Source of the DNA: Chiloscyllium plagiosum
Lineage: Eukaryota
Assembly (NCBI RefSeq): GCF_004010195.1
Contig: NC_057736.1
Span: 22,338,831 to 22,402,830, forward strand
Direction: 5' to 3'
DNA: 64,000 bases
The notes under the pieces were generated by a model. That model did no database searches. It was not told where the DNA came from and saw only the letters and a list, made by a program, of their open reading frames with translations. The position numbers and the translations under genes were made by a program. Shown here piece after piece: positions 14,183 through 42,030 of this stretch; within the stretch, counting starts at the first letter, position 1, and each line of letters begins with the position of its first letter.

Positions 14183-14319
14183 CTGCGTGAAAAAGAAATT
14201 TCAATTTAAAAAAAAGTTCTAAATTTCAGTTGCTCTCAATTGCTGTGCACTTTATTTTCTAAAAGGTTTTGGAAATAGCTCTCACATAGAATTTATATTA
14301 CTGTAACATATATGCTTAC

Positions 14320-15240: not shown

Positions 15241-15864
15241 TGTCTATATCCTTTGTCAGACTGTTATCCACATCATTTGGCTACCCACTATTTTTATGTC
15301 ATCTGCAAACTTAGTTATAGTACATTCAATTCCACATTAATATATATTGTGAATAATTGTAGCACCAATACTGGTATCTGAGGGGCACCATTAATCACAG
15401 ATTACCCGAAAATATCACCTTTATCCCAATGTGCTATCTTTGATTAGTTTATCAAGTCCTCTATATATGCTAACATATTGCCTCTGAAACCAAGAGTTTT
15501 TATCTTATTAAGTAGCCTGTGTGGAACCTTATTAAATGCCTTCTGAAAATCCAAATAGGTTACATCCATTGCTTCCCCTTTATCTAACCTACTTCAGTAA
15601 ATTTGATATTGAATATTCAGGGAATATCGAAAACAATGGAAATTCCATTTTAAAATCTCAACCATTGTTAAATAGCAACCTACATGAAAGCCTGAAATTT
15701 ACTAAGCACTATTCACAATGATTACATTACTATCAACCTTTTTGCGCTGTTACTTTCTCTTTAGACTTTGAGACACTAACAAAGAAGTGACCTAACAACA
15801 GAAATAAATTATACTTAATCACTGGAGTTTCACAAAAGCAGGTTAGAGGAATTACTTGCATTCA

Positions 15865-16032
<168 letters not shown>

Positions 16033-16702
16033 TCAAAATATACATTTGCAACTGCAGGACACACGCTCGGGAGTCTTTCCAAAAGTGTGCTACAAATTCA
16101 TGTGCATTAGAAAGAAGATTCTCTATTAAGTAACAAGTTGGAACCAATGTGAATTAGAAAAATATTGATAAGATAATCTATTGCAACCATGTTATATTAC
16201 AATAGCAGTACATTTTTGCTATGATTAAAATGACAGCCAGATTATTTTTAATAATAAGTCATAGATGCAATAAATTTCCTAAGCTGATTAGCAGAATTGT
16301 TTTCCTATTGCTAATCTACTGCATAAATAAATACACAAAAGACATCTGGCTGGCCATGAGGTGAGCAGGAGCACAAATCAGATCCTTCAATGGGCAATAC
16401 AAATCAACAGCAGAAATTCTGATGAAAGATGGACAAGAACATCCTGACCCTCATGGGTTACATTTGTGGGCAAAGAAAAATTGGTGTAACAATTCACCAA
16501 TGTACTAACTTTATATATTTATTTTCTACATTTTTCTGTTTCTAAATCGATTCTGTTAAAGCAGCCATCAAACTAAGAGGATTCAGGCTCAACTTGATTA
16601 CAGAGAATCCACAATACGAAAATCAAAACAAAGTAACAAAAAAATCAGGAACAGAATCTTTCTGGGAACAACCTTAGAGATAGCACAAATCACACCATAT
16701 TA

Positions 16703-17106
<404 letters not shown>

Positions 17107-17291
17107 TTACAGTGCATTAATTAGAATTATGCATTCAATTTCCAGGACAAAGCAACTCCTTTCAATAGAAATAATCAAGAGTTAGATCCATTGCAAAATG
17201 TAGATGCTTATCAAAAAGAACAAACTTGGACATGCAACTAGCCCGGAAGGGCTATCAGAAATGAATGAGAGTATTTTTGAAGTAGCCAATA

Positions 17292-18060
17292 CAGTGAAAA
17301 CTTGAGTATCCGAACAAGATGGGCAGACACTATTTCATTTGGATAATTGATTATTCAGAAAATCGATTAAATGCTCGGAGTTTTAAAGTCTGCTCCCCAT
17401 TCAGGAGACTGCAGCAGCAGATATTGTGCAACACCCCGCCCCCCCCACTCCCGTCCAGCACTGCCCCCCAATCCGGTCCAACCCCACCCCCGTCCCCAAC
17501 ACAAAGCACACGAGCTCCCCCTCCCCCCACTACAGGGTAGCCGGACTGTACACCAAGACTGCTGCTGCCTGTGTGGGGTAAGTCTGAAATAGTACACACA
17601 CAACTTTTTGACAGGTTCCACGTTTGCCCTGTACAGGACGATGGTGGAGAGATTATACCTGGGAAGCAGGGGTGGGGGGTTAGGGTACACCCNNNNNNNN
17701 NNNNNNNNNNNNNNNNNNNNNNNNNNNNNNNNNNNNNNNNNNNNNNNNNNNNNNNNNNNNNNNNNNNNNNNNNNNNNNNNNNNNNNNNNNNNNNNNNNNN
17801 NNNNNNNNNNNNNNNNNNNNNNNNNNNNNNNNNNNNNNNNNNNNNNNNGTTTACTTCCCTGGAGTGAGAGAGGGAGGAGAGGGAGGAGAGGGAGGAGAGG
17901 GAGGAGAGGGGAGTCAGTCATTTGGAGACGGTGCTGGTTTAATCACTGCAAACAAAAGACGCGATCACTGTTGGAAACACGTCCTTGATGTAAATGTTTC
18001 TATCAGGACCTCGAGATCTCTTTCGGATAACTGGTAATTCGGATAATCGAAGTTCCTCTG
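17292..18060. mobile_element. Non-autonomous Tc1/mariner (pogo/Tigger-like) DNA transposon spanning an assembly gap
   Basis: Imperfect TIRs CAGTGAAAACTTGAGTATCCGAA / TTCGGATAATCGAAGTTCCTCTG flanked by TA on both sides; N-run and (GGAGAGGGA)n inside. Confidence 0.6.
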
Positions 18061-18427
18061 TATTTATTACCATGTTCAATTTTCCTCAGGGTTTGTATCT
18101 TTTCAAATATTAAGCAATCTAATGCTTAGCAAATAGACAATAATTGTGCTCAAACAAAAATTAATTCTTAAACATCCTGCTCTATTGTATCCCAACCATT
18201 ATTTATGTAATAGAGAACTCAAAAATTTAAAAAGTTCTAGTATCCTTTTTGAAATCTGTCACACCCTATTAAAGGGGTTACATTTCCTCAGCTCTTCACA
18301 GAGTATCATAATTGACCACATTAAATTAAATATCTTTGGTTGTTGGAACAAACTCTGTTTTAAATATCCAAATAGAATAAGTTCAACTTGATTTTAGACT
18401 TTGCCTCTTCCTTTTTCAGTTTGGTAT

Positions 18428-18591
18428 GCCCATAGTGTTCAGGGATGTGTAGGTTACATGCATCAGTAAGGGCTAAATATAGGATAATAGGGTAGGGGAA
18501 CGGGTCCAGATGGGTTACTCTCCAGAGGGTTGGTGTGGACTTGCTGGGCCAAAAGGCCTGTTTCCACATTGTAGGGAATCTATTCTATTCT
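18428..18591 (+). mobile_element. 5'-truncated HE1-like SINE
   Basis: 3' half: gggttggtgtggacttgctgggccaaaaggcctgtttccaca plus (TATTC)n tail. Confidence 0.75.
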
Positions 18592-18904
18592 ATATACATA
18601 TTAATCTTAATATTTTGTCAAATCCACAAGACGGTTAGAAAAAAGCAAAGTTCCCTTGCACACACATATAGTTTACTTAATTTATATGTTAAAAGGAATT
18701 ATACAATCATGAAAAGTTAAATTAAAAAAAAGACCTCATCTTAGCACAAGCATTTGAAATACAAAATATACAACAAACATTCTACTATATTCAGTTGGAT
18801 CATGAGAAAGCAGGCCTCTACAAACACTGATAAACACAAGAATTACTAATACCTAACAGACCAATATCCATACATTGAATTAGATAACAAAAGGTTTTAG
18901 ATAT

Positions 18905-19692
18905 TTAGAGGCATAGAAGTGTACAGCATGGAAACAGACCCTTCGGTCCAACCTGTCTATACCGACCAGATATCCCAACCCAATCTAGTCCCACCTGCCC
19001 ATATCCCTCCAAACCCATCCTATGCATATACCCATCCAAATGCCTCTTAAATGTTGCAATTGTACCAGCCTCCACCACATCCTCTGGCAGCTCATTCCAT
19101 ACACGCACCACCCTCTGCGTGAAAAGGTTGCCCCGTATGTCTCTTTTATATCTTTCCCCTCTCAGCCTAAACCTATGCCCTCTAGTTTTGGACTCCCCGA
19201 CCCCAGGGAAAAGACTTTGTCTATTTATCCTATCCATGCCCCTCATAATTTTGTAAACCTCTATAAGATCACCCCTCAGCCTCCGACGCTCCAGAGGAAA
19301 CGGCCCCAGCCTGTTAAGCCTCTCCCTGTAGCTCAGATCCTCCAACCCTGGCAACATCCTTGTAAATCTTTTCTGAACCCTTTCAAGTTTCACAACATCT
19401 TTCTGATAGGAAGGAGACCAGAACTGCAAGCAATATTCCAACAGTGGCCTAACCAATGTCCTGTACAGCCGCAACATGACCTCCCAACTCCTGTACTCAA
19501 TACTCTGACCAATAAAGGAAAGCATACCAAATGCCTTCTTCACTATCCTATCTACCGGTGACTCCACTTTCAAGGAGCTATGAACCTGCACTCCAAGGTC
19601 TCTTTGTTCAGCAACACTCCCTAGGACCTTACCATTAAGTGTATAAGTCCTGCTAAGATTTGCTTTCCCAAAATGCAGCACCTCGCATTTAT
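18905..19692 (-). mobile_element. Young CR1/HER1-like LINE 3' fragment (RT C-terminus still open over 258 codons)
   Basis: Uninterrupted ORF with LHFGK..DLGVQVH..RPLLEY..FWSP..LERRRLRGDLIEVYKIM; 5'-truncated. Confidence 0.92.
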
Positions 19693-19837
19693 ATAGAAAG
19701 GTTTTATTGTAAATCTATAATTGAGCATCAAACACCAGTTTCTATATTTTCTTTCTGAATCCATGTCCTATCTGGAAGCCAACCCACTCGTGGTGAAAAA
19801 CCAAACTCTTCTTTCAAAAATATTTTCTAATCACCTT

Positions 19838-20632
19838 GTTCGGAGTTGTTATTACACACTGTTAGAGCAGGTGGGGCTTGATCTTGAGTCTCCTGACTCA
19901 GAGGTAGGGACGCTACCACTGTGCCACAACACCCATAAATCAAGTTTTAAATTTTCTTTTAAATCAACGAGTTCAGAGATGCTACGACACACCTCTGAAG
20001 CAGGTGGCACACAAACCCAGGCAGGCCTCCTGGCTCAAAGGTAGGAACACATTACTAAAGTGCCACAAGAATAAGCCTAACCCAAGCTTTTATTTACAAT
20101 AATTGATTTGAAACTTCACTACTGCCATGATGGTAATTTGAACTTGTATCTCCAAACATTAGCGGCCATAAACTTCTTTTTAAAAACCGAATTCACGTTT
20201 ATTTCAGTTGGCCACACTTCATCAAACTCACCCGTTTTTTTTCTACCTCCACGTGTTTATGCAACTAATTTAAACCTGCTTGATATATTTCCTAATCAAC
20301 TACTCAGAGATGTTAAGACACACCTTTGAAGCAAGCTGGATTTGAACCCAAGCTTCCTGGATCAGAGGTAGGAACACTACCACTGCACCACAAAAGCCCC
20401 TAACATTTTTAATCCAGCTGTTCACAGATGTTAAAGCACATCTCTGGGATAGATGGGACTTGAACACAGATCTTCTGGCTTAGATATAGAGGTAGAGATG
20501 CTGCCACTGGACCACAAGCTCTTGATATTTTCTAACCAACCTGTTCGGAGCGGTTATTACACACTTCAGGAGTAGTGGACCTGGACCTGCTTGCTCCAAG
20601 GCAGGTACACAATCATTGCATCACAAGAACAC
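19838..20632 (-). repeat. Tandem array of five diverged ~100-bp tRNA-like (Pol III A/B-box) units
   Basis: Units at about 19838, 19971, 20303, 20420 and 20543. Minus strand reads TGGTGCAGTGGTAG..ctacctctga..GGTTCAAATCC..ggtgtgt in the best copy. Confidence 0.7.
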
Positions 20633-21574
20633 TTATCCAAGTTCTTTTTTTCCCCCCTTACTCAGAAGGGTTATCACATACAACTGAGTGACCCTCCCAC
20701 CATCAAAATTACCGTGACTTCTTTTTGCATTTTTAAATAAAGTAATAATCACCACCAGTGAAAGCACCCATGTAGCAACTGAGCACTTTCAAACAAAGCC
20801 CACCATGGGCAATGCAAATCATCATATTTTTTGGGGGTGCGGAAAGTAAGAAGCAGGAAGGCACTAAATCAAAATGGAGTTGGAGGGGGAAATAAAGCAC
20901 TGTATTGCCCATCCTATCCTACCTATCTCTCTCTCTCTAAAAGGCATAGAGAATACTGATGGGCACTGTGTGCTCCCTCTCCCAGGACACCAAGGCACAA
21001 ACTTAACCAGAGAATCCAAGCTCTTAAATATTAAGTCCAATGAGCATAATCTATCCTTAAGTAATTCTGGATCCATTTACAATTTATACTTAAAGCATAT
21101 TGTCAATTTTTTTTCTCTCAGAAGATAGACAATCTGTGGAATTCTTTACTGCAGAAGGCTGTAGAGAATTGATCCTTAAGCATATTCACGGCTAAGATAC
21201 ACAAATTTTTAATCAGAGGGGAGACAAGGGTTAAGGGGATAAGAAATGAAAGTAGAGTTGAAGTAGGGCTGAATGGTTGACTTCTGTTCGTGACTCTTGT
21301 GGTCTTATGATGCGGCACAGCTTATTAGAAATAATAAATGCAAATATAAATAATAACTTTCAATATATAGCACCTTTAATGCAAGTAAATATTCAATTAT
21401 ACTTATCAGGAATTGACTGCACAAAACTGGAGAACAACAAGGACCTAAGGGTGCACCATATCAAACTCAATGAAAATAGCAGAAATGAGAATTACAAGAA
21501 AGATTGGGGTGGCTCTCTGGTGGTAATGGGGAACTGGCATCATCTTCAAGACAGCTAAAGCCCACTTCTACTTA

Positions 21575-21688
<114 letters not shown>

Positions 21689-21989
21689 CTAAAGAAACAA
21701 AATACTTCAAGATTCTATAACTGAATCATATAAATAAAATTTATGACTCGATTTCATCAAATCAAACAGCCATATTTCAGTGTACAAATAAAATACCTTA
21801 TAAACGAAATTAACGGACTAAGACAGGGCAAAAGAAGTGTTCACACAAAGTTCGTTAACACAGAGAAGATTCAATCTCTCCTCTCCTTCAAATTTAGTTG
21901 TACTAAAACCAAGACAGCAGCACCAATGTTTTTTACTTACCTCAGCTTATGGGTTGTGATAAAGTTACTAGATACTTGCTCTTGATCAT

Positions 21990-22260
21990 ATTATAAGCAA
22001 CCTTTGACAGCACTTTCCAAAGCCATAAACTCTCCCAATTTGAAGGCATCAGATCCACCTGCAAGTTCCCCTCCAAGTCATACACCATTCTGATTTGGAA
22101 CAATATTGTATTCCTTTATTGCCACTGGGTCAAAATCTTGGACCATTCTTCCTAACAGTACTGCAGGTACTCTTACATTGCAAGGTGGCAGTCAACACCT
22201 CCTGCTCCAATTAAGGGTAGCCAATAAACATTGACTTCACTCACATCCAGTGAATGAATA
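21990..22260 (+). mobile_element. Old LINE 3' remnant (same family as 4340-4715)
   Basis: Shared motifs acagcactttccaaa..ctgcaagttcccctccaagtca..gggtcaaaatc..caataaa. Confidence 0.55.
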
Positions 22261-22836
22261 AAAAAAAACATACATACAACATTGGGTAAGAATGGGATTT
22301 GGGCTTAACTACAACTATCCTATAGTCAAACATATGCCAAGACTTACTTCTGAATATTAGTTCGAGTAAAGTAGTAACCGCTATCCAGCATCTATGCAAT
22401 TGCCAAATCCAAGGTATTAATGTCTTCAGGATAAAACAAATTATGAAATTTTGAAGAGTGGAGGGAGAGGGGAAGAAAAAATGATTTGTGTTGCACAGAA
22501 ATGAGTAGACTTCAACTAGCAGCTGATCCACTTGACTGGACCAACCCATAAACTGTGTGCACTTTCCTATTACTATACTTACTACTTAAATGCTGAATCA
22601 GTTGCATAGATCAACTATAATAATCAATTCCTGAATCAACATATCAACGCATATTCAAGTGATGAGGATACTACTTAATTGTGGAAGAGAGCAAAATAGT
22701 GCAACAGGTGGTATTATAAGGATTATGGTGAGAACAAGATGCTCTAGAGCTTAGTTACAACATCAACTTATTAGCGCTTCTTCATCAGGGACAAATCTTG
22801 CACCCAATCTAGTCCGAAACATCAAATCTATGATTA

Positions 22837-23121
<285 letters not shown>

Positions 23122-27099: not shown

Positions 27100-27800
27100 T
27101 CTTGGAGTGCAAGTTCATAGCTCCTTGAAAGTAGAGTCACAGATATCTAGGACAGTGAAGGTGGCATTTGGTGTGCTTTCCTTTATTGGTCAGAGTACTG
27201 AGTATAGGAGTTGGGAGGTCATATTGAAGCTGTACAGGATGCTGGTTCAGCCACTTTTGGAAAATGCAATTCTAGTCTCCTTTCTATCAGGAGAATGCTG
27301 TGAAACTTGAAAGAGTTCAAAATAGATTTACAAGGATTTGCCTGGGTTGGAGGATTTGAGCTATAGCTGAATAAGCTGGCGCTGTTTTCCCTGGAGCTTT
27401 GGTGGCTGAGGGGTGACCTTATAGAGGTTTATAAAATCATGAGGGGCATGGATAGGGTAAATAGACAAGGTCTTTTCACTGGGGTGGGGGAGTCCAGAAC
27501 TAGAGGGCATAAGTTTAGGATGAAAGGGGAAATGATATAAAAGAGACCCAAGGGGCAACATTTTCACGCAGAGAGTGGTGTGTGAATGGAATGAGGATGC
27601 CAGAGGAAGTGGTGAAAGCTGGTATGATTGCAACTTTTAAAAGGCGCCTGGATGGGTATATGAATAGGAAGGGTTTGAAGGGATATGGGTCAAGTGCTGG
27701 CAAATGGGACTAGATTAGATTGGGATATCTGATCAGCATAGGCAAGTTGGACTGAAGGGTCTGTTTCTGAGCTGTATATTTCTGTGACTTTATGATTCTG
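27100..27800 (+). mobile_element. CR1/HER1-like LINE 3' fragment
   Basis: LGVQVHSSLKVES.., standard 3' UTR. Confidence 0.9.
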
Positions 27801-28284
27801 TCAGTTCTTATTTCTTCTGACTTCTTCATTAAAAAAAAAATCAGTTCTGGTACGTCAGCATACTTTAAAATCTACCTACATTGAAAATAAAACCATTCTA
27901 GCTCCTTCCAATATAGAATAAATATTCTTAAATATAGTATCATGAGAGACTGAAATTTGCCTAAGTCATGAATGTCATCGAGAGGCATAACATTTGCTTA
28001 AGTAACTACGTACAGCTTCTTAAACAAAAACAGAAATCGCTGGACAAACTCAGCCGTTCTGACAGTATCTGCGCAGAGAAAGCAAACGGCCGAGTTTTTC
28101 CAGCAATTTCTATTTTGTTTCAGATTATCGTCATTCGCGGTTCTTTGCTTTATTTTACCACTACCTTCTGGACACGATAGGAAATAACCATGTCTTTAAA
28201 ACATGGTTATTTTTGGAGGAGGATGTAAAGCCATCACAAATTTTAGACTGAGACAAGCCTGAGAAGCGAAAGGCTCGGCCTTAC

Positions 28285-28740
28285 AGTGCTCTCGGGATTT
28301 GTAGTCCTGCAGAAATTTCACTTCTTCCCGGGAGCTGAAGACACAGCTTCCAGAAAACTACATTTCCCAGTGCGCATGCTCCACCCAAAGCGGTGCCGAC
28401 CCTTTAGTGCTCCAGCAACGCCTCAATATATCTCTATTTATAATAGTAGCAACGACGACGTCTACTGCGAAGCTGTAAGTTAAACGATTAAACTTAAAAA
28501 AAAAACCGGTCTATACGAGAAATCCATACTTGCTCAGCCACCGATAGAGACGATCACAAACAATACCGCATCCACCCTCCAACAACAGCTGGAGATGCGC
28601 ATGCCCGTTAGGGTCGGACCATCACGTGATCAATGATGGAATCGGCGTAGTGACATCAGATGGAGTGACGCAGAAATAGGTATATAAAGGACTGTGGCGG
28701 GTCCGGCGCATGCGCACCACCTCGGCGTCCGGCCGACAAC
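28285..28740. promoter_or_regulatory. CpG-rich bidirectional promoter shared by TMEM50A (-) and SNRPC (+)
   Basis: Two ZNF143-type ACTACA..TCCC motifs (about 28292-28305 minus, 28357-28370 plus), E-box TCACGTGA 28622-28629, CRE-like TGACATCA and TGACGCA, TATATAAA 28681-28688, NRF1 GCGCATGCGC 28706-28715. Candidate TMEM50A non-coding exon-1 donor (GTAAGG) at 28284. Confidence 0.75.
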
Positions 28741-29226
28741 ATGCCGAAGTATTATTGCGATTACTGCGATACTTACTTAACACACGACTCGCCGTCTGTC
28801 CGCAAAACCCACTGCGAGGGCCGCAAGCACAAGGAGAACGTCAAGGACTATTACCAGAAATGGATGGAAGAACAGGCCCAGAGCCTCATCGATAAGACCA
28901 CCGCCGCTTTCCGCCAAGGGAAGATCCCGCCCACCGCACCGTTTCCGGCGCCGGCCGGTCCTCCTCCCGGTGGGGCCGCTATCCCGCCGCCTCCCGGCAA
29001 TGTCGGTGTCCCACCGCCGCGGCCTGCCATCCTACCGGGGCCCCCGATGGGAGGGCCGCCCATGATGCCGATGATGGGCCCCGCGCCTCCCGGTATGATG
29101 CTAGTAGGTCACGGGATGAGGCCGCCTATCGGGGGCCCGATGCCCATGATGCCGGGGCCTATGATGGGGCCTCACCGGCCGATGATGGTGCCTTCCAGAC
29201 CTGGGGTGGTCCGCTCGGGAAGATAA
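28741..29226 (+). CDS. SNRPC: U1 snRNP protein C (U1-C), single-exon intact ORF, 161 aa
   Basis: [51 protein letters not shown]: matrin-type zinc finger followed by a Pro/Met/Gly-rich tail; no introns, stops or frameshifts. Confidence 0.95.
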
Positions 29227-29920
29227 GCAGTGATTTACATTGTGAGGTTTACTCAGTGCAACTTTTCATATTTTTCCCCCACCGAAGCAAAGGCCGCTGA
29301 AGGACAGCATCGGCGGTTGAAGATCAGATTTGTAAACTTCTTTTGTTTTAAGAAACTGCAGCAAGTCGCATGTCAGCCGCCATCTTCCCGGCCAACCACC
29401 AACCATGGTTAATGTGAGCGCGTTTCTAAATGACGAATCGTGATTCAAACTGAAATACTCTCTAGAAATCGCCATTTACATTCGGAAATGGCTGATACCC
29501 GTTTTCGAAAGCGTTTTGTTGATTCTGGCGTCCTCTAGATTGTGCAGGAAACATGGCCCAAGTTGCAATTTTTTTGACTGCCCCCAATCTATTTCACAGT
29601 TCAATGGCATTTTGTCTTTCTAAGTAATTTCAGTTCGAGTTCCTCCTCTGCCATTTATACTGTAATTCCTTTTTTTCTTTTACCAGTGTAAATTTTCCTA
29701 ACTTTCTAAAAGATCTCCAAACACACTGGTTGACTGTACAAGAAGCAGTGAGCCATTAACATTAGGTTAAATTGTAATTGGAATGTATTGTTTGTTCCTT
29801 GATCTTGGGTAATTGAACAGCCAACTGCAGATCTTAATTTGAAAATACTTATGTTGAACATGTTGCATTTATTTTGTAATCCTTAATTTAGTGTTTGAAA
29901 TATTACATTTTAAAAATTGT

Positions 29921-29926
29921 AATAAA
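29921..29926 (+). promoter_or_regulatory. Candidate SNRPC polyadenylation signal
   Basis: AATAAA followed by GT-rich sequence about 700 nt after the stop. Confidence 0.5.
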
Positions 29927-31478
29927 TGCTATATGTTGTATGATTTGTCGTCTGCATGTCTTTGGGAACTGCAGTTTCTAAGCCAACCGAAATAATTTTC
30001 ATCTTGTCCAGAAATAACTTGTAATTCATTTGTTCCAGTAGAAGTTATGCATTTCTGCTCTTTCTAAATACCTTCTCAGTGGAATGAAAGTGCCATGTTC
30101 TATTTGCAATTGTAGACTCAGTACAGGTATATTAGGATATCAAATATAATTTATAAGGGGTTAAGCTTCATTTCCATTAAAACTATGGACAATTACAGCT
30201 CCAGTGTAGCTGCACCAACAATTAACTTGAGTATTTGCAATACTTAAAGCTGTAAACTATAAAAATTGTCATAATTTGGTTGCACTGTACTGTATGTAGA
30301 TCAATATAGCGAATCAATTCGTTTCAACTTTGCCTACTTAATGTCTGCTTGCAGTATATGAAAGGTTTTACCATTTTGATTTTTCTTCAGTCTGGAATTT
30401 GAGTTGGAAACAACAATGGCTTACTGGCCATAAGTGAACTGCACTATACAGAAACACTCATTTGTGACCATTGTTGTTCCTAAAGACATGTACTGGTCTT
30501 TCTGAAATTTGTTTCAAAAATATTCTTAAATGTCTTTAAATTCATTTTTAATTAGAAATGAAGTGAAACATACAGCTACAGTAAGATTTTATTCCCAAAC
30601 AAACATTAGTTTAAACATTTCTTAATCATATAGGATCCTGATAAATGGTTACATGAAGAGTTTTATAGATAGCTAAGCAAGACAAAATTATACCTTGAGG
30701 CATTTCATTATTTAATCTGCAAAAAGTTAAACTAATCGCTTTTAATGGTGCTGATAAACTTAATAACAACCGAAACTGGAAAAGTAAAGAACAATGAATG
30801 TTTCATTTTATTAAAAAAAACTCCATTGTTCAGAAGTAACTTTTCAGCTTATGAATATTTAAATTACCCCTGTTCATCAGCCTGATGTGCACTTTGCCAT
30901 TTTGTTTGTCTTTTGATTTGATATAATTTCAAGACATCATAATACATTCTGCTGTTGTGAGGTCATATTGAAAACTGTTCAAATATTGAGTACCTTTGGG
31001 AGCAGAGAAACATCTGAGGTCAGATTCAAGGTTAAATTTAATTCAAGATTACACAATAAATTTAAATTGGGAATTACATACCCTTAGCTGGAGTGAAGAA
31101 GAATTCTGTTACAGCAGAGAACGTAACAGCCAGTTCAATTATTTGGGATTTCAACTATAAATGCCTAGTTTGTATAAAATACAACTGTTTTACAATTTGC
31201 AATGCATCATTTTTGTTAAATGATCAGAAAGTATGAAAACATGTTGTCCCACAAAGTCTAATCACAATGGAATGCTTATGATAGTAACACTGATATTAAA
31301 GAAAACACCCATCGATGGTTGACAATGGTAAAAGGGATTAGCCATTAAACAAAGAGATGGTGAAGATAATCCTCATTTCAAACTGGCTGAGTATGTAAAG
31401 TACTAGAGAACCACAGCCATGCTGTCAGTCACTGATTTTCTTACGTTCATCACAGTAGTAGCGTTAAAATTACTCTTT

Positions 31479-31582
31479 TCATCCTGACGAAATAAGGGTT
31501 TTAAATGCGACAACTATAGACAGAAAAATAACTCCCAGTAGACCAATGTATCCGTAGGAACCATTCATTCTTTTCTCTGGCA
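31479..31582 (-). CDS. MGST3: MGST3-like MAPEG gene, last coding exon (PEKRMNGSYGYIGLLGVIFLSIVVAFKTLISSG*)
   Basis: Acceptor cttcttcgcag; phase matches the previous exon; P.KR..G..G..GLLG MAPEG helix-4 pattern. Confidence 0.88.
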
Positions 31583-31735
31583 CTGCGAAGAAGCGGAGAT
31601 AACAGCTGAACAAAAGTACACAATCTGATATGGTTTCATTGAGATTGCTAATACTATACAGAAAAAAAAAGGCTTATACGGTCTATAAAGTATGCATACT
31701 GGACCATATAGACATAAGAGTTTCATTTTAGTGTC

Positions 31736-31835
31736 AAGATTAGAGTGGTGCTGGAAAAGCACAGCAGGTCAGGCACCATCCAAGGAGCACGAAAATTGAC
31801 GTTTTGGCCAAAATCCCATCATCAGGAATGAAGGG
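31736..31835 (-). mobile_element. Penelope-like terminal fragment (degenerate hammerhead)
   Basis: caagattagagtggtgctggaaaagcacagcagg..catcaggaatg, as at 26546-26650. Confidence 0.7.
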
Positions 31836-32822
31836 TGTCATGTAGTACTGTGAATTTTATAGCACCCTACCGCCGCCTCCTAATTTGCAGGCCACCGACA
31901 GATCAATGGCAATGGCTGGAAGGAACCAAAGAGTTCAGTGAAGTTTGGTAACTGTTTAGGGCCTAGAGAGAAAAACAGGCCGAGGGAGAGATGAGAAAAG
32001 CAAGTACAGTAGGAGAGAAAGAGAAAAGTGATATTTGTATAGGTACAAAAATGATCAGAAATGCAGAGTTTTGGAAATAACCAGTCAGCCAATGCTTGTG
32101 AAGAAATAAATGGTTGGTAACTTATCTGACATATCTGATAAGGTCACTTTCGCTAGATTGGGAAAGGGATTGAATCAACAAATATACCATCTGGAAAGTG
32201 GGATTAAATGAGATGTAATTGGCTTAAGGCATAAATAATAAAAGACTTAAGACAGAAATGCAGAGATAAAAATGTGCAAATAATGTGTCAAAAGACAGGA
32301 AATGCCATGTGAATGAAAATCTGAGACGAAACAAAGTGTTAGAACAAAAAATAAGGCCACAAGTAAAACAGGAAATTAATACAAAATGCAAGTCCTAGTA
32401 GAAATTGTAAATAGTTTTATGTAATTACGAAAAATGTAGGGACTTTTGAACAGCTTGAATCAAAGAAGATAGTGTGGAAAAGATGTCAAAACAGCAAGGT
32501 GTCAAGGAAGGTCTGCGAGGGGAATTGAAGGAGCATAAGTGATCTCTGAAAGGTGTTCAAGTGTGGAACCTTGCTGACTTGTAATGCTGGGGAAGGGAAG
32601 GGTACAAAAGAGACCAGAATCACCAAATGACAAGTCTGCTGCAGGGAATGGTAGTGCCAAGTTGTGTGTGACCCAGTGTATCATTGAAACAGGTGAGAAG
32701 CAAAAGCATGAAGGGATACATTTAAACGTGAGTTGTTCAGAGATTTTTAATGAGGAACTTCTGTATAATTAATGTTTTTTGAGAAGGTAACAAATGAAAA
32801 TAAATGCCTGTCTGAAAGCAAT

Positions 32823-33920
32823 GGGGGAAAGTGAGGACTGCAGAAGCTGGAGATCAGAGTCGAAAAGTGTGGCGCTAGGAATGCACAGCAGGTCAAGCAG
32901 CATCCGAAAAGCAGGAGAATCAATGTTTCAGGCATAAGCCCTTCATCAGGAATGTGGGGTGGAGGGGAAGGGAACGGAGAGATAAATAGGGTAGGAGTGG
33001 GGCTGAGGGGAAGGTAGCTGGGAAGGCGATAGGATGGATACAGGTGGGGGTCGTTAGTGATAGGTCGGAGGGGAGGGTGGAGCGGATCGGGGGGGTTGGT
33101 AGAAGAAAGATGGACAGGTAGGACAATTAAAGTGGACGGTGCCAAATTGGAGGGTTGGATTGGAGGTGAGGGGAAATGAGGAAACTGGTGAAATCCACTC
33201 CAGGCACCTCTTGCCGCTGCAAGAGGTGTAAAACCTGTTCCCCCATCTCCCCCATCACCTGTGTCCAAGACCCCAAAGAATCCTTCCACATCCATCAGAA
33301 ATTTTCCTGCACATCCAAACACCTCAGCTCCTGTGTCCTTTGCTTTCAATGGGGTCTCCTGTAAACAGGACGCCAACTCATGAAATGTTTCAGAGAACAT
33401 CTCTGGGACACATACACTTAACAGCTCCACCGCCCTGTGGCCGATCACTTCAACTGCCCCCCACCAGTCCACCAAGGACATGCAAGTCCTGCGCCTCCTC
33501 CATTGCCAAATCCAACCCACCTAACGCCTGGAGGAAGAATGCCTCATCTTCCACCTTGGGACCCTCCCACATACAACATCAATGTCAATTTCACCCATTT
33601 CCTCATCTCATCTCTCCCCCCACTTCATCTCAGATCCAACCCTCCAATTCGGCATCGCCGTCTTGAACTGTCCTACCTGTCCATCTTCCTTCCCACCTAT
33701 CCGCTCCAACCTCTCCTCCGACCTATACCAACATCTGTATCTACCTATCGCCTTCCCAGCTACCTTCTCTCCAGCCCCACCTCCATCCTCCTATTTATCT
33801 CTCAGCCCCCTTCCCTCCACCAAATTACTGATGAAGAACTTATGCCAGAAATGTCAATTCTCCTGCTTCTTGCATACTGACTGACCAGCTGTGCTTTTCC
33901 AGTGCCACACTTTACAACTA
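32823..33920. mobile_element. Penelope-like element with long inverted repeats and GIY-YIG remnant; 10-bp TSD
   Basis: About 330-bp inverted arms; internal CKRCKTC..FHIHQKFSCTS..C..C..GLL and FREHLWD..VADHF; TGAAAGCAAT at 32813-32822 and 33921-33930; hammerhead motif in each arm. Confidence 0.85.
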
Positions 33921-34404
33921 TGAAAGCAATAGTCAAGGTTCCACCAAAAGGAACTCTTAAAGGGGCAGCCAATAGCTTTGAATAGGGAAAGAATTTGTTA
34001 GGAAAGAGGAACAATGATCAGGAAACAATAAGTACGTATTCAAATCTCTAGAATTTGATCAGTTATTTTGTACAAAAATCACAAAACTAATAGGGACAAA
34101 AATTAATTGAAAATGCTAATAGAATGTTGGCCTTTATCTCAAGGTGGCTGGAAATCAAAGGGGTGAAAGTTATATTCCATATTTCGCACTTCAGACAAAC
34201 CTGTTTTGCACTGTGTTTGGACAATGCACCTCGGACAGTGTACACAGGATTTGTAGGAGCTGCAGTGTAGATTCAATTGAATGATACTGTGACTAAAAAT
34301 GATTACATTATGAAGGGACAGTGAATGGAATAGGCTTGCATTCTTGTGAATTTTGAAGATAATGGATTAATCTAATTGAGGCGTTTTAAGATGATCAAAG
34401 GATT

Positions 34405-35662
34405 TGTGTGGAGCTGCAGAAAATGGGGGAGATACTAAATGAATATTTTGCATCAGTATTTACTGTGGAAAAGGATATGGAAGCTATAGACTGTAGGGAA
34501 ATAGATGATGACATCTTGCAAAATGTCCATTTTACAGAGGAGGAAGTGCTGGATGTCTTGAAACGCATAACAGTGGGCAGATCCCCAGGACCTGATCAGG
34601 GGTACCCTAGAACTCTGTGGGAAGCTAGAGAAGTGATTGCTGGGCCTCTTGCTGAGATATTTGTATCATTGATAGTCACAGGTGAGGTGCTGGAAGACTG
34701 GAGTTTGGCTAACGTAGTGCCACTGTTTAAGAAGGATTATAAGGACAAGCCAGGGAACTATAGACCAGTGAGCCTGATCTCGGTGGTGGGCACGTTGTTG
34801 GAGGGAATCCTGAGGAACAGGATGTACATGTATTTGGAAAGGCAAGGACTGATTAGGGATAGTCAACATGGCTTTGTGCGTGGGAAATCATGTCTCACAA
34901 ACTTGATTGAGNNNNNNNNNNNNNNNNNNNNNNNNNNNNNNNNNNNNNNNNNNNNNNNNNNNNNNTCATTTACATAAATGATTTGGATGCGAGCATAAGA
35001 GGTACAGTTAGTAAGTTTGCAGATGACACCAAAGTTGGAGATGTAGTGGACAGTGAAGAGGGTTACCTCAGGAGTTAGGAGGTCATGTTGCAGCTGTACA
35101 AGACACTGGTTAGGCCACTGTTGAGAATATTGCATGCAATTCTGGTCTCCTTCCTATCAGAAAGATGTTGTGAAACTTGAAAGGGTTCAGAAAAGATTTA
35201 CAAGGATGTTGCCAGGGTTGGAGGATCTGAGCTACAGGGAGAGGCTGAACAGGCTGGGGCTGTTTTCCTGGAGCATTGGAGGCTTAGGGGTGACATTATA
35301 GAGGTTTACAAAATTATGAGGGGTATGGATAGGGTAAATAGGCAAAGTCTTTTCCCTGGGGTGGGGGAGTCCAGAACTAGAGGGCATAGGTATAGGGTGA
35401 GAGGGGAAAGATAGAAAAGAGACCTACAGGGCAACTTTTTCACACAGAAGGTGGTACGTGTATGGAATGAGCTGCCAGAGGAAGTGGTGGACGCTGGTAC
35501 AATTGCAACATTTAAGAGGCATTTGGATGGGTATATGAATAGGAAGGGTTTGGAGGGCTATGGGCCGGGTGCTGGCAGGTGGGACTAGATTGGGTTGGGA
35601 AATCTGGTCGGCGTGGACGGGTTGGACCAAACGGTCTGTTTCCATAGTGTACATCTCTATGA
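34405..35662 (+). mobile_element. CR1/HER1-like LINE fragment (RT) with assembly gap
   Basis: ILNEYFASVFT, SPGPD, ANVVPLFKK, PGNYRPVSL, QHGFVRGKSCLTNLIE, FADDTK and 3' UTR. Confidence 0.92.
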
Positions 35663-36487
35663 CTAATTGATGGGATAATAGAGATATTAGTTCCTCAGGT
35701 CTGGACTCCAAAACACAATGGTATAGGATTAAGATTAGAACTATGTCCTCGAGGAATGATGTCAGAAATGACTTCTTTACATAAAATATGCTGTGAATCT
35801 CACTGTTGAGGTGAGGTCAATTAAATTTCAGAACTAGTATAATTAATACCTTTGTCTAACAAAGCTTTAAAGGTTATGGAACCAAGGCAAGTAGATAGAG
35901 TTAAGGTATAAAATTGAATAAGATAACATTGAATTCAGCTACGGAATCGACTTACGGCAGAAACACCTACCCCTTTTGATTAGATTAGATTAGATTTTAT
36001 TCCCTACAGTATGGAAACAGACAACTTTAAATTTGAAGTGGTGATCCACTGGGAGGAATTTTCTGAGACTGAGAGCTTGAATCAACATCATTTCTCGGGC
36101 CTATCAAACTCCTCCCCACTCCCAGCAAAATTCCAGAGCAGCCAGTTGAGAGGCTGTCTTCTGGAATGCTGTTCAGTTAAGGTTGGTGAACTGGTTCCAG
36201 GGATGGCAGGCCTAATTGGAGTGCTTACAGCCCTGAAAGATGGCACTCCTACTGCCAGAGGTGGGCACAGCCAGTAAGAGAGAGGAGATTAGGCCACCTC
36301 CATCATGACGCACCATTTGAAAAGGTTTGATTTCAATTAACGGAAATCTGATTGCAGAGCAAGAGTTTCCCCACGACAGACTGGATGGGAGTGGTAGCAG
36401 CTGTGCCTCACTGATAGTATTGACTATGGCAGGAGATTAATACATGAGGCCCTGTGGACTAACTGCTAGCAAGTTGCCATGCTTGAC

Positions 36488-36935
36488 CCGTCTTATCAAA
36501 CCACAACAACCCGACGGTCGGAGGAGGAGCGTCTTATCTTCCGACTGGGAACCCTCCAACCGCAGGGGATGAACTTGGACTTCACCAGTTTCTTCATCCC
36601 CCCTCCCCCCACCTTGTCTCAGCCGGATCCTTCCAGCCCGGCACCGCCTTCCTGACCTGCAGTCTTCTTCTTGACCTCTCCGCCTCCACCCTACTCCGAC
36701 CTATCACCCTCACCTTGACCTCTTTCCACCTATCACATTTCCAACTCCCCTCCTCCAAGTCCCTCCTCCCTACCTTTTATCTTCTCCTGCTGAACACTCT
36801 CTGCTCATTCCTGAAGAAGGGCCTGTGCCCGAAACGTCGAATCTCCTGTTCCCTGGATGCTGCCTGACCTGCTGTGCTGTTCCAGCAATAAAGTTTCAAC
36901 TTTGATCTCCAGCATCTGCAGACCTCACTTTCTCC
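36488..36935 (+). mobile_element. Penelope-like element 3' part
   Basis: EEERLIFRLGTLQPQGMNLDF GIY-YIG C-terminus, pyrimidine-rich spacer, terminal repeat. Confidence 0.85.
36807..36842 (+). ncRNA. Minimal type-I hammerhead ribozyme motif, best-preserved family A copy
   Basis: ATTC-CTGAAGA-A-GGGC-ctgt-GCCC-GAAA-CGTC-GAAT: perfect stems I and II, predicted cleavage after GUC (36838). Confidence 0.8.
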
Positions 36936-38136
36936 ACATTAGGCAACCCATCTACTACTGGGAAGATCCTGGTGGCAGTCCCAAACAGCTCAGAAGTGGG
37001 CAGTTAATTATGGAATATTGACCACTCACTATGCATCTCAGAAATACCTCCCTGTCCTGACTCAAAACCTACCCAAAACACCTGGTAGATTCCACCCACT
37101 GGTTTGATTTGATTTATTATTGTTATGTACTGAGAAACAGTGCAAAGTATTGTTCTGTGTACTGTCCAGGCAAAACATACCTTACGAAAGTACATCATTG
37201 AGAGCCAGTGCAGGTGAGAGAGAACAGTGATCTTTGGGAAGCAGTTCATGATGCCAGTACTCTGTCCATAATCAGAGCTTTGGAAATTTTACAGAGAAAA
37301 GCTCACTAGGAAAAGCATTCTAATAGTTAACACTGGCGGTGACAAAGTCAGAAATGAGAGTTGAAGCTTCAGATGGATTGAATGTAGGTAAGTGCAGTTC
37401 CAGAAATGGAAATAGTTGTTCTTCACTGTCATTAAAGGCTTTTATTGGCTGTTAGCTCATCTGTGGTTGTTCATCAGCATTTATCAGTTTTCTAAAGCTA
37501 GCATCAAGAATGCTGAGGAAATAAAATAGACACATTTCAAATGGGTAGTATGATGGGAGACCTAGAAAAGGGGTGCTTGAGAGCAAGGGTCAAACTATCC
37601 CCCACCCTGTGGGCTCTTCCAGACGTTGTTCAATGACTACAGTTTTTGTTCTCTAATTTGTTCATTAAATGAGATGTAATCATGTAGTAACAATCGTGGA
37701 ATTAGAAAACTTCAATATCTTCAATTATCATCACTCAAACATTAAACTTAAAACTACAGAACACAAGAAAATGTTTTACTTCCTATATAATGACAACATT
37801 AGCATAAGATAACAGGCAAAAGTTAGCAACAAAAGCTTTTTAAAAAATCAAAACAGTTAACATACCCCATAAAAAAGCACTTTTAATTTGTAAAGAAATC
37901 ATTATCTCAATGTCTTCATGTTTCCACAGTTGCCAGTTAGCCAAATATTGCTTTGTTGACAGGTTTAAAGCTCTGTTCTCCTTCATAGTCACAGTGCCAT
38001 TTGTAGCTACCTACTTCTCACACCTCCCCTTTGAAGGCATTCACATTTCTTCCCAATTCCTCTTTGCAGCCATTTGCTTCTCCCCAGCCTTGCATTTTTC
38101 CTGTGGTCTCACCAAAACTTTGATCACCACAACTTA

Positions 38137-38431
38137 CCAGAGACCCGGGTTCAATTCCCGCCAGAGACCCGGGTTCAATTCCCGCCTCAGGCGACTGACT
38201 GTGTGGAGTTTGCACGTTCTCCCCGTGTCTGCGTGGGTTTCCTCCGGGTGCTTCGGTTTCCTCCCACAGTCACAAAGATGTGCAGGGCCAGGTGATACTA
38301 AATTGCCCGTAGTGTTAGGTAAGGGGTAAATGTAGGGGTATGGGTGGGTTTCGCTTTGGCGGGTCGGTGTGGACTTGTTGGGCCGAAGGGCCTGTTTCCA
38401 CACTGTAATGTAATCTAATCTAATCTAATCT
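38137..38431 (+). mobile_element. Young HE1-like V-SINE, 5'-truncated, with duplicated B-box segment
   Basis: ccagagacccgggttcaattcccg twice; CpG-intact V-domain; (AATCT)n tail. Confidence 0.88.
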
Positions 38432-39809
38432 TACCCTTTCACTGTTGCTTCAATGCAAGTGATCACATCTGTAGCAAGTAAGTAGTCTGTAACTTGATGG
38501 GCAGTTCTTTTCAAAATTTCTCAATTTCACATAAGGAGGGTGATTTTTCTCTGATTGGTCGCACACTGAGTTTTGGGTATTTTCAGCATTGCTTGCAAAA
38601 CCATAGATTCTGGGGTGTCAAGATGTTGATGAGACCAGAGACCTGGATCAGGAGATTTGCTTGTGAGGCCAAAGAACTGGAGGTGGAAGGGTTTGATAAT
38701 TATCAATGCAGTCAAAGAATTGCCCAACCTCCAACTATGCTCCTTGCAAAATTCCACTTGTCAATACTTCCCTCATGATTTACCTTTCAACCCCACTGAT
38801 GCTCTGCATGTTGCCCCACTCCACATTGTTCCCATCACACAAACATACACACCCCTTCCCTACCATTTCCACTCAGATCCTCTTTCCACACCCCTTTCTA
38901 AACACATTCAACATATCCTCAAGTCAACCTCACTCCTTTACCAATTCAGCAGCCCCATTTCCCATCTGTTATGCCTCTGGTCAAAAGTCTTCTCACCAAT
39001 CTGGTGCCCCATCACCAATTCAGTAGCCCCTCTGCACTATATCCCCCACACATCCCCAGCACTGCTGCTAGCTCTTCTTGAGTTGCACGCCTGCTTGGTC
39101 CTACTGCTGCCCACCCATAGATCCCTGCACATTTAGCAACATTTTAGCCCCCTTTCAGATTCAAAGGCATGGTACAAGCCAGTCAATCCTCCTTGTGGCT
39201 GAGTGAGCAGCATAAAGTGCAGCATATCCACCACCCCACCACCCACATGTACAGCCACTAAAAATATTTGGACAGAAGCAAAAGGAAACTGCCCATAAGT
39301 TTTCCCAGTTGCTACCGAGAAATATGAGACAAATGAAATCCCGGAAAGCAAACACATAGGACTTGGGCAAAAGCATAAAACTGCAGGTCACCTGGTTAGA
39401 ATATTTGTATCATTATGTAATGAGGCACTTAACCAAGAGAATTCTACATAAACTAAAAGGATGTTATGTGTTTTGATTGAGAGAAACAACTCCTGCTTTT
39501 CTGTTATTGAACTTGTTATTTTGCATTCTGGTTTGTCTAATTTGGTATTGCCTGCCTCCACTACAAAAAATAGGGTCAGAAATTTAATATTTTGTTACTG
39601 CATTGGAAAGGTTACCCTTCAGAAGAGAGATTAAACTCAGGTACAGTTTGCATGTTTTGGTGAAATAAGATCAACTAGCTGCTCATCTAATTTCTGTTGT
39701 GAAAATACTAGATGCACTTACACTGAACCATACAATTATTTATCACCAATGGAGGAAATTGATACTTTTCTGAAGGACACTCGAGTTATTATTATCTATA
39801 GAATCCATC

Positions 39810-40137
39810 TACCAGGCCTGCTGTCAAGGAAAGGCCGCCAGCATTCTCAAAGAGCCATCCCACCCTTTTAATGTTTTTCCACAACCTCTACCATCAGGGA
39901 GAAGGTACAGAAGCCTAAACACATACACCAGCCAGTTTCAAAACAGTTTCTACCCTATTATTGTTGGAATACTGAATGGACTCACATTCACCTGTACCTG
40001 TGTTTTTGTTTTTGCCGCTATTTACCTATTATTTACTTATCTATGCTACTTAACTATGTGATCTGCCTGTATTGCTTGCAAGACAACGCTTTTCACTGTG
40101 CCTTGGTACACGTGACAATAAATTCAATTCAATTCAA
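39810..40137 (+). mobile_element. Rex1/Babar-like LINE 3' end
   Basis: KAASILKEPSHP..F.QPLPSGRRYRSL..T..F.NSFYP-like remnant; tail aataaa(ttcaa)n. Confidence 0.6.
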
Positions 40138-40483
40138 TATAATTCAAAGTACTGCAGAAAGGGTAGAAGCAACAGATTCGATAATAGAATTCAAAAGATA
40201 ATTGATTTAAGTACATGAAAAGAAGCTATGACAGGGTTCTGTGGAAAGAGAAAGTGAGTGCAGTAAATTGAATAACTCAACAAAAAGTTAGCACAATGGA
40301 CCAAATAGGCTCCTTCTGTGCTGTATCATTCTGTGAGGAGATACATTATCCTCAAAGTGAATCCTTCTCTCCCACTAATCCTATGGTACACATGATACTT
40401 TAAAATAACATTGTTAAATACAATGAGATGCATTTGTTTTCTTCAGTAAATACAAAGAGTAAAAAGGGAATTTGAATACACAC

Positions 40484-40556
40484 CTCCTGAGTAATATCCC
40501 CACGCATATGTAAATCGACTGGTTACCCAGATGATGCCAAGCAAAGAAGCAGTGAT
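40484..40556 (-). CDS. MGST3: MGST3-like exon 3 (ITASLLGIIWVTSRFTYAWGYYSG)
   Basis: 73-nt exon with AG/GT ends; G..W...R..YA.GYY MAPEG motif. Confidence 0.9.
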
Positions 40557-41265
40557 CTGAAATATTGAATAACTAGATTGTCACTATTCATTGCATGTAA
40601 TATGAATTAATATTAAGAAACTGCAATGAAGTATATCCTAATGAAATACAAATATCATATGAAAATACTTCGCAAATGAGGCTGGTCAAAAATTAATATC
40701 ATCTCTCTGGTTGTTCTAAATGTCACTGCACTTCAAAGCATGTAAAGTACTTTGAGATGATTTTTAAGGTGTATCCCAATGTTATACAAATGGTAGAATG
40801 CAGGAGAAACCTCTTTACCTCAAGATCTATAATAATGTTTAAATACAGTAACATAGTTTTTTTATTAGGCAATGCACATGCTGACTTGCCCATGGTCGAG
40901 AGGACAGAAAGCATTAATATTTGTTGTTTCCAAGGGGGAAAGAATCACTAGTGTACCAACATTTCCCACAGTGAAACTGAGGCATGCTAGTTTGAGTGGC
41001 AGTGAACATAAGGAAAACATTTTTAGTTAGCTGAAGTTAGATGACTCAGGTAATAGTTCGAGGATTTTTTTTGCATTACTGTATTTAGAAATAAAGATAA
41101 ATTATATAATTCAAGAAAAATATTTGTGGAAACACCAGGATAATACTTAGAAACTCATGAATTTTAGTCCTTTGGATAAAAGTTAAAGAGTTCTCACACT
41201 GTCAGTAACACAAGACTAGTGGCCTTACTGGCTAAAAGGTGGCATTAAAAAAGGACAGAATATTG

Positions 41266-41485
41266 ACTGAAAACAACAAATGTTGGAGATCACAGTGGTT
41301 CAGAAGGCATCCATAGCAAGCTAACATTTCGAGTCTAGATGACTCTTCATCAGGGCTGAAGTGAAGTATGGAAGGTACAGCATTTACTTGCTCTCTCTCC
41401 ATGGATACTGTCTGACCTGCTGTGATCTCCAGCATTTGTTGTTTTCAAATTATATTCCAGCATCTGCAGTAATTTGTTCCTCACA
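41266..41485. mobile_element. Short inverted-repeat Penelope-like element (third family)
   Basis: aaaacaacaaatgttggagatcacag vs ctgtgatctccagcatttgttgtttt inverted arms around a hammerhead motif. Confidence 0.65.
41319..41357 (-). ncRNA. Minimal hammerhead ribozyme motif (PLE family C), partly decayed
   Basis: Minus strand AGCC-CTGATGA-A-GAGTC-atcta-GACTC-GAAA-TGTT-AGCT. Confidence 0.6.
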
Positions 41486-41523
41486 CAGAATATATCTTTG
41501 GATTACCATTTCCTCATCCTTAC

Positions 41524-41646
41524 CGGATAGACAACTCCAGCTATCAGTTGGAAGATCAGCCACTGAGGATATATCTCCACCGTACTTTGATGTGCTCGTT
41601 GGATGCAGTTGAATAGTGGATCCTTATCACTGTACATGTTTGGATA
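41524..41646 (-). CDS. MGST3: MGST3-like exon 2 ([41 protein letters not shown])
   Basis: 123-nt phase-0 exon with the FNCIQRAHQ signature of MGST3. Confidence 0.93.
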
Positions 41647-41786
41647 CTGGAAGGAACTATTATGCATTATTACCAAGCTAATGTATGATTGCATGACTAA
41701 ATTCCAGAACTCTTATGCAAGTTTCAGCTTTTAAAATGTCCATCGTTAAAGACAGTGAGTAAGAAATTAATCTAAATAAATCAGGC

Positions 41787-42030
41787 ATAAGGGGCAACTG
41801 TTTCACACAGAGGGTGGTACGTGTATGGAATGAGCTGCCAGAGGAAGTGGTGGAGGCTGGTACAATTGCAACATTTAAGAGGCATTTGGATGGGTATATG
41901 AATAGGAAGGGTTTGGACGGATATGGGCCAGGTGCTGGCAAGTGGACGAGATTGGGTTGGAATATCTGGTCGGCATGGACGGGTTGGACCGAAAGGTCTG
42001 TTTCCATGCTGTACATCTCTATGACTCTAT
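41787..42030 (+). mobile_element. CR1/HER1-like 3' end
   Basis: VWNELPEEVVEAGTIATFKRHLD plus tail ctctatgactcta. Confidence 0.9.

What the first reader, a model, noticed from the sequence alone, without database searches (positions are those of the whole stretch)
28741..29226. Intact intronless U1-C (SNRPC) gene, probably a functional retrogene
Seen: a complete single-exon ORF with all four zinc ligands, high CpG retention, a TATA box 60 nt upstream, a TE-free 3' region with AATAAA, and no poly(A) remnant or TSD. Known: mammalian SNRPC is multi-exon and is not located in the RH/TMEM50A/RSRP1 block. Inference: an old retrocopy of an essential spliceosomal gene that became functional here. It may have replaced or supplemented the parental gene in this lineage.
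Basis: partly seen in the sequence, partly recalled or inferred. Interest (0 to 1): 0.7.

Follow-up and report, generated by a model that had tools for sequence, protein, structure and literature searches.

The report
Intronless shark splicing gene, relocated copy
Sharks, skates and chimaeras appear to make the essential splicing protein U1-C from an intron-free copy that moved to another chromosome long ago and probably replaced the original gene, a known kind of event that we did not find described for this gene.

Summary
28741-29226 is an unbroken 161-codon U1-C ORF with all four zinc ligands, a TATA box 60 nt upstream and a CpG island. It is functional: probable RNA contigs cover it without a joint, and a relative differs by 11 synonymous and 1 non-synonymous changes (dN/dS about 0.03). 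It is not local to this species. It belongs to one clade (99/98) with the annotated U1-C of chimaera, skates and catsharks. In little skate, Snrpc also sits beside Tmem50a on chromosome 26, whereas C6orf106, Uhrf1bp1 and Anks1a, its neighbours in bony vertebrates, lie on chromosome 24. Gene-model breakpoints show SNRPC introns in hagfish, lamprey and bony vertebrates. Best reading (0.75): a stem-chondrichthyan retrocopy that replaced its parent, an orphan retrogene. No second copy was seen, but no whole genome could be searched. The lamprey position and the exon structure in other cartilaginous fishes were not seen directly. No RH exon was found; the 3' neighbour is an MGST3-like gene. New member of a known kind; not found in print in 10 searches.

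The parts
28741..29226 (+). Single-exon SNRPC (U1-C) coding sequence, 161 aa: zinc finger 1-38, helix to about 61, Pro/Met/Gly-rich tail
   Evidence: unbroken probable-RNA contigs 28735-29721 (X17) and 28732-29274 (X19)
28681..28688 (+). TATA box, 60 nt before the ATG
   Evidence: RNA-type depth is zero over 28324-28716 and starts at 28732-28735; start site itself not mapped
28706..28715 (.). Palindromic GC motif of NRF1 type (motif name recalled)
   Evidence: 2 places in the window
28294..28369 (.). Two opposed ZNF143/SBS-type motifs (28294 on -, 28357 on +; motif name recalled)
   Evidence: 2 of the 3 matches in the window lie here
27750..29750 (.). CpG island covering the promoter region and the whole ORF
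   Evidence: CpG o/e 0.78-1.15 in 500-nt windows
29227..30456 (+). Probable 3' UTR; AATAAA at 29921; end not mapped
   Evidence: contigs carry no strand, so part may belong to the opposite gene
28193..28323 (-). Candidate region of the non-coding first exon of TMEM50A (inferred)
   Evidence: depth 2.77 in this bin in X17 only, piece not listed; several weak donor candidates; not shown
14140..22969 (-). TMEM50A-type gene, six coding exons; the ATG exon (22870-22969) begins one base before the ATG, so a further 5' exon must exist
   Evidence: UPF0220
30483..47800 (-). MGST3-like (MAPEG) gene converging on SNRPC; coding exons near 47.7k, 41.6k, 40.5k, 31.5k
   Evidence: probable RNA contigs leave the stretch at 31584, the last-exon acceptor
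53434..59696 (+). RSRP1, coding exons
28016..28126 (.). Relic of a very high-copy short repeat
   Evidence: summed depth up to 46,908 in DNA run X3

Best explanation
This is the working U1-C gene of cartilaginous fishes. Shown: it is intact, intron-free, under purifying selection and very probably transcribed. Inferred: before chimaeras split from sharks and rays, a spliced SNRPC mRNA was reverse-transcribed and inserted between TMEM50A and an MGST3-like gene. The copy gained expression from a CpG island that probably also drives TMEM50A in the opposite direction (this step about 0.65). The intron-bearing parent between C6orf106 and UHRF1BP1 was then lost. The protein should work as ordinary U1-C, stabilising the U1 snRNA/5' splice site duplex through backbone contacts.
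For: Function: 11 synonymous and 1 non-synonymous of 12 coding differences in organism C, dN/dS 0.03, P 2e-6 against neutrality; first 61 residues identical in 5 of 5 full-length shark, skate and chimaera proteins compared; the 9 residues named as contacts in PMC4383343 passages, and K29, are kept; skate Snrpc has baseMean 2018 in fin RNA-seq. Introns ancestral: 59 of 254 U1-C-like proteins break before residue 4 and 14 of 254 before P18 (crude patterns, some are decayed copies), including hagfish P0072/P0129 and lamprey P0127; further breaks at 53-55, 84-85 and 122-123; 0 of 9 chondrichthyan proteins break at the first two. Moved: skate Snrpc 26C:20.75-20.76 Mb (5 of 5 rows), Tmem50a 20.76-20.77, Syf2 20.71-20.72; C6orf106 24C:8.26, Uhrf1bp1 8.28, Anks1a 8.43. 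Bony vertebrates: fused models SNRPC+ANKS1A (Channa) and SNRPC+UHRF1BP1 (Heterocephalus); C6orf106 next to SNRPC in mammals. Single copy: 7 chondrichthyan rows form one clade, 99/98; no chondrichthyan name on any other type among the proteins listed; skate symbol has no -1/-2 suffix; DNA run X3 gives one contig at flat depth 7.05 over the ORF.
Against: No whole genome was held, so absence of the parent is not shown. The lay drops human-like contigs and short diverged exons may fall under 80%, so X3 is a weak test. U1-C was recovered for only six named chondrichthyan species; the collection also holds Heterodontus, Hypanus and Hemitrygon proteins whose U1-C I did not find, and only the best 120 of 1361 hits were listed. 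The skate file was cut when stored. The exon structure in skate, catshark and chimaera was not seen. The cyclostome position is unknown. No poly(A) or target-site relic. The one raw-read RNA run laid 0 reads (no test); X17 and X19 are RNA by guess and by pattern. The TMEM50A first exon was not mapped.
Confidence: 0.75

Rival explanations
1. Functional retrogene that supplements a surviving intron-bearing parent on the C6orf106-UHRF1BP1 chromosome.
For: Parent loss untested genome-wide; protein survey incomplete; most retrogenes coexist with their parent (PMC4772013 passage).
Against: All 9 chondrichthyan U1-C proteins held are of one type; five species' records carry the plain name without '-like'; one Snrpc label in the stored skate tables; no second contig over the ORF in DNA run X3 or in X17/X19. 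The Narcine '-like' copy groups with skates (97/88), so it is a later offshoot, not the old parent.
Confidence: 0.12
2. SNRPC was ancestrally beside TMEM50A. Cartilaginous fishes lost all introns in place by recombination with a cDNA, and bony vertebrates moved the intron-bearing gene to the C6orf106-UHRF1BP1 block at DNA level.
For: Cyclostome position not seen (searches gave nothing); no insertion scars; a well-formed TATA promoter.
Against: Needs two independent events where one retroposition explains both the intron loss and the move. Loss of every intron is most simply retroposition (PMC3548309 passage). The C6orf106-Uhrf1bp1-Anks1a block exists in skate with no Snrpc row seen there.
Confidence: 0.09
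3. The gene first moved as an intron-bearing DNA copy, and introns were lost later, in some lineages only or in several steps.
For: Intronless state seen directly only in organism A's DNA.
Against: The Callorhinchus model P0046 skips residues 60-104, which match no ancestral junction and look like a false intron over a known frameshifted stretch: weakly in favour of one exon there too. No chondrichthyan isoform breaks at the first two junctions (0 of 9).
Confidence: 0.04

Closest known systems
Orphan retrogenes (PMC3548309: 25 human cases; PMC4772013: 10 mammalian families, e.g. RNF113A, MARS2, TRMT12)
   Same: Intron-free copy of a housekeeping gene at a new locus, strong purifying selection, CpG-island promoter (9 of 10 in PMC4772013), parent apparently gone.
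   Different: Here in cartilaginous fishes and in a core U1 snRNP protein; 'SNRP' occurs 0 times in the PMC3548309 main text. Parent loss is not shown genome-wide here.
Head-to-head retrocopies on a neighbour's bidirectional promoter (e.g. HTR7P1 with HEBP1, PMC4772013)
   Same: Divergent neighbour (TMEM50A), one CpG island, adjacent promoter bins in skate.
   Different: The neighbour's start site is unmapped here, and the SNRPC side has its own TATA box, which could have come with the copy or arisen later.
Teleost hatching-enzyme genes (PMC6385490, abstract only)
   Same: Indispensable gene that lost its introns and changed locus at the same time.
   Different: Those kept the parental promoter and moved several times; promoter origin is untested here and one move suffices.
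Vertebrate SNRPC / U1-C
   Same: 58 of the first 61 residues match frog, zebrafish, sturgeon and bowfin; all ligands and named contacts kept.
   Different: No introns, other chromosome, and Y4 (shared with cyclostomes and invertebrates), E26, R58 and a one-residue insertion near 66; E26 occurs only in the 9 chondrichthyan proteins among 257 U1-C-like proteins held.

Membership tests
U1-C (SNRPC) | N-terminal matrin-type U1 zinc finger with C6, C9, H24, H30 | tested here: met
U1-C (SNRPC) | Residues contacting the RNA backbone or SmD3 (T11, Y12, T14, H15, S19, R21, K22, H24, R28, K29) | tested here: met
   named in PMC4383343 passages; present
U1-C (SNRPC) | Full-length match to human U1-C including the Pro/Met-rich tail | tested here: met
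   residues 1-160, E 1.6e-69
U1-C (SNRPC) | Incorporation into U1 snRNP | not testable with these tools
   inferred from sequence only
Orphan retrogene | Coding sequence runs unbroken across several ancestral exon junctions | tested here: met
   one frame over all five break positions seen in other species' models; the six-exon human structure itself is recalled
Orphan retrogene | Multi-exon orthologue in outgroups | tested here: met
   indirect: protein breakpoints in bony vertebrates, hagfish and lamprey; no genomic DNA seen
Orphan retrogene | Position differs from the multi-exon orthologue's locus | tested here: met
   window map plus skate chromosomes 26 versus 24; fused models
Orphan retrogene | The new position is the derived one (outgroup synteny) | tested here: inconclusive
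   no cyclostome position found
Orphan retrogene | Parent absent or decayed in the lineage (genome-wide search) | tested here: inconclusive
   no genome held; no second copy, each with limits
Orphan retrogene | Purifying selection | tested here: met
   dN/dS 0.03 on 12 differences; conservation to chimaera
Orphan retrogene | Expressed | tested here: met
   probable RNA contigs in 2 of 3 RNA-type runs laid, the third no test; skate RNA-seq row; breadth across tissues not tested
Recent retrocopy | Poly(A) relic and target-site duplication | tested here: not met
   expected to have decayed in an ancient copy
Head-to-head retrogene on a shared promoter | Divergent gene's start within 2 kb | tested here: inconclusive
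   TMEM50A needs an upstream exon; weak depth at 28193-28323; adjacent 10-kb bins in skate

The most novel reading that the evidence does not exclude
All living cartilaginous fishes run their U1 snRNP on one orphan retrogene, born before the chimaera-shark split (over 400 million years, date recalled), that took over TMEM50A's CpG island, gave up any intron-based regulation that the parent had (basal ray-finned fishes keep a conserved 24-residue cassette there), and fixed a lineage-specific acidic residue (E26) beside the RNA-facing R28/K29 that may tune 5' splice site choice.
Probability: 0.3. Interest if true: 0.68.

Novelty: new member of a known kind. Interest (0 to 1): 0.5.

Why it matters
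If right, an essential core splicing factor changed chromosome, promoter and gene structure in the ancestor of a whole vertebrate class, against the slow, conservative picture of shark genomes (picture recalled). It would be a very old orphan retrogene outside mammals and a clean rare genomic marker for Chondrichthyes. Retrocopy pipelines that need a multi-exon parent in the same genome, as in the VGP methods passage, would by design miss such cases, so more may be hidden in these genomes. The mechanism itself is known, which caps the interest.

Tried and rejected
No whole genome was available. No RNA holder was on record; raw-read run X22 laid 0 reads from about 6% of the run, which is no test. 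A TMEM50A exon search for neighbour accessions found nothing. An RSRP1 search gave Heterodontus, Hypanus and Hemitrygon proteins but none of the species with a known U1-C accession, so accession order could not test synteny. Seven further U1-C clusters (59 members listed) held no chondrichthyan name; four members were unnamed. Longer proteins: 46 hits, none named as chondrichthyan. Supplements: catshark genome PDF too large to read; catshark cartilage paper, elephant shark genome and Nakatani 2021 had no hit for the gene names or for recalled gene identifiers. Unread or cut supplements could bear on synteny and copy number. The donor at 28284, my first pick for TMEM50A exon 1, is not better than others in the island (6 of 9 consensus positions), so it is not claimed. 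Pseudogene reading rejected. Rfam: 0 matches in the window. Earlier findings: 3 look-ups, nothing. Print: 10 searches; no listed title or abstract start concerns an intronless or relocated chondrichthyan SNRPC; most subscription papers are not in the library. A 2R-paralogue origin was considered and set aside on recalled paralogon knowledge only, not tested.

Full report
Verdict. Parent loss and the direction of the move are inferred, not shown.

Observation. 28741-29226 (+) is one open frame of 161 codons. It matches Pfam zf-U1 and human U1-C over residues 1-160. C6, C9, H24, H30 and the residues named as RNA or SmD3 contacts in PMC4383343 (passages) are all present. A TATA box starts 60 nt before the ATG, AATAAA lies at 29921, and there is no poly(A) relic or target-site duplication above chance. 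The whole ORF lies in a CpG island (o/e 0.93 against 0.29 for the window).

Neighbourhood. TMEM50A is on the minus strand (coding exons 14.1-23.0 kb), an MGST3-like MAPEG gene on the minus strand (31.5-47.8 kb) and RSRP1 on the plus strand (53.4-59.7 kb). SNRPC thus points away from TMEM50A and towards the MGST3-like gene. No RH or SYF2 exon was found in the window. The TMEM50A ATG exon starts one base before the ATG, so its first exon lies further up; the island at 27.75-29.75 kb is the only strong one between and holds two opposed SBS-type motifs (name recalled). A shared promoter is therefore likely but the exon was not mapped.

Function. Four runs were laid on 27800-31700. X22, the only raw-read RNA run laid, gave 0 reads and is no test. 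X17 (organism A) and X19 (organism C) are RNA by guess, and behave so: zero depth over 28324-28716 where DNA run X3 is flat, unbroken contigs from 28732-28735 through the ORF, and contigs that leave the stretch at 31584, the acceptor of the last MGST3-like exon, with 495 and 423 letters left over (those letters were not shown). Organism C differs at 12 coding positions, 11 synonymous and 1 not; dN/dS 0.03, P 2e-6 (one of the 11 also differs within organism A, and leaving it out gives 0.03, P 7e-6). Skate Snrpc is expressed in fin RNA-seq (PMC10115646, supplement rows).

Age. The protein clusters with the U1-C of Callorhinchus, Amblyraja, Rhinoraja and two Scyliorhinus species. In a tree of 26 rows chosen by hand from the proteins held, the 7 chondrichthyan rows form one side of a 99/98 branch. 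The first 61 residues are identical in those five species. A decayed Narcine copy groups with skates and so is a later offshoot.

Introns. The six-exon human structure is recalled. The calls support it indirectly: gene models and isoforms of other species break before residue 4 (59 of 254) and before P18 (14 of 254), by crude patterns that also catch some decayed copies (one search gave 42 and 8 among 223 held), and single models break at 53-55, 84-85 and 122-123. Hagfish models break at the first site and a lamprey model at the second, so introns are ancestral for vertebrates. None of 9 chondrichthyan proteins breaks at either.

Position. In the skate supplement (table rows only, file cut when stored; I read the bait as the promoter bin), Snrpc is at 26C:20.75-20.76 Mb in 5 of 5 rows, Tmem50a at 20.76-20.77 and Syf2 at 20.71-20.72, the order expected from this window. 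C6orf106, Uhrf1bp1 and Anks1a are on 24C at 8.26, 8.28 and 8.43 Mb. In bony vertebrates SNRPC belongs to that second block: fused models join it to ANKS1A in Channa and UHRF1BP1 in Heterocephalus, and a mammalian paper names C6orf106 and SNRPC as neighbours (PMC6459222 passage). One fused model in Labeo joins it to SYS1 instead, so carps may differ. Chicken and human share the gene order round RHCE (PMC11188259, section 16; the figure's gene list was not visible, so absence of SNRPC there is recalled). The cyclostome position was not found.

Parent. No genome was held. No second type turned up among named proteins, in the skate rows, or in the DNA and RNA contigs at 80% likeness. Each test is weak: 120 of 1361 hits listed, U1-C of several sequenced sharks and rays not recovered, human-like contigs filtered from the lay, skate file cut.

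Mechanism. Shown: intact, intron-free, selected, probably transcribed, beside TMEM50A in two distant elasmobranchs. Inferred: one retroposition before the chimaera split, promoter gain from the CpG island, later loss of the parent, ordinary U1-C activity. Rivals: surviving parent (0.12), intron loss in place with a move in bony vertebrates (0.09), DNA move with later intron loss (0.04).

Comparison and novelty. It works like, and on all tested features fits, the orphan retrogenes of PMC3548309 (abstract, section 15, passages) and PMC4772013 (section 13, passages); two defining features remain inconclusive. Teleost hatching-enzyme genes are a fish precedent (PMC6385490, abstract). Ten searches listed nothing on this case. 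New member of a known kind; interest 0.5.

Noticed in passing
proteins P0020, P0233-P0241: Sturgeon, bowfin, eels and tarpon share a conserved insert of about 24 residues at the last SNRPC junction, probably a cassette exon; the intronless shark gene cannot make it. Five such proteins were aligned.
   Followed up: partly
window 29318-31584: In organism C, contigs end at 30456 and restart at 30483, so the SNRPC and MGST3-like 3' UTRs abut or overlap; the 3' region differs at about 4% of positions (48 in 1132), less than synonymous sites (9%), hinting at constraint.
   Followed up: partly
window 28816-28818 (codon 26): E26, beside the RNA-facing R28/K29, is found only in chondrichthyan U1-C among 257 proteins; bony vertebrates have S, and other groups vary. 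Not mentioned in PMC4383343 under the terms searched.
   Followed up: partly
window 30483-47800 (-) and 49000-50250: An MGST3-like gene lies between SNRPC and RSRP1; a second CpG island with a TATA-type motif at 49651 and a smaller one at 47500-48250 mark the probable RSRP1 and MGST3 starts.
   Followed up: partly
window 28016-28126: Degenerate copy of a very abundant short repeat inside the edge of the CpG island; family not identified.
   Followed up: no
window 29040: Synonymous G>C against the window in all three runs that cover it: polymorphism or a base error in the assembly.
   Followed up: no
skate LE28302 (PMC10115646 SI Table 5): Skate Snrpc is listed as differentially expressed between anterior and posterior pectoral fin (log2 change -2.5), unexpected for a housekeeping gene, though the table has over 6,700 rows.
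   Followed up: no
P0085 (Narcine): Decayed, internally deleted U1-C-like copy of the chondrichthyan type: a secondary copy of the intronless gene or a poor model.
   Followed up: partly
window 50100-50300: A stretch of roughly 200 nt appears twice in tandem in the RSRP1 5' region (seen in the printout): local duplication or assembly artefact.
   Followed up: no
P0195, P0249: Cypriniform models join SYS1 and SNRPC, suggesting a different neighbour or read-through in carps.
   Followed up: no
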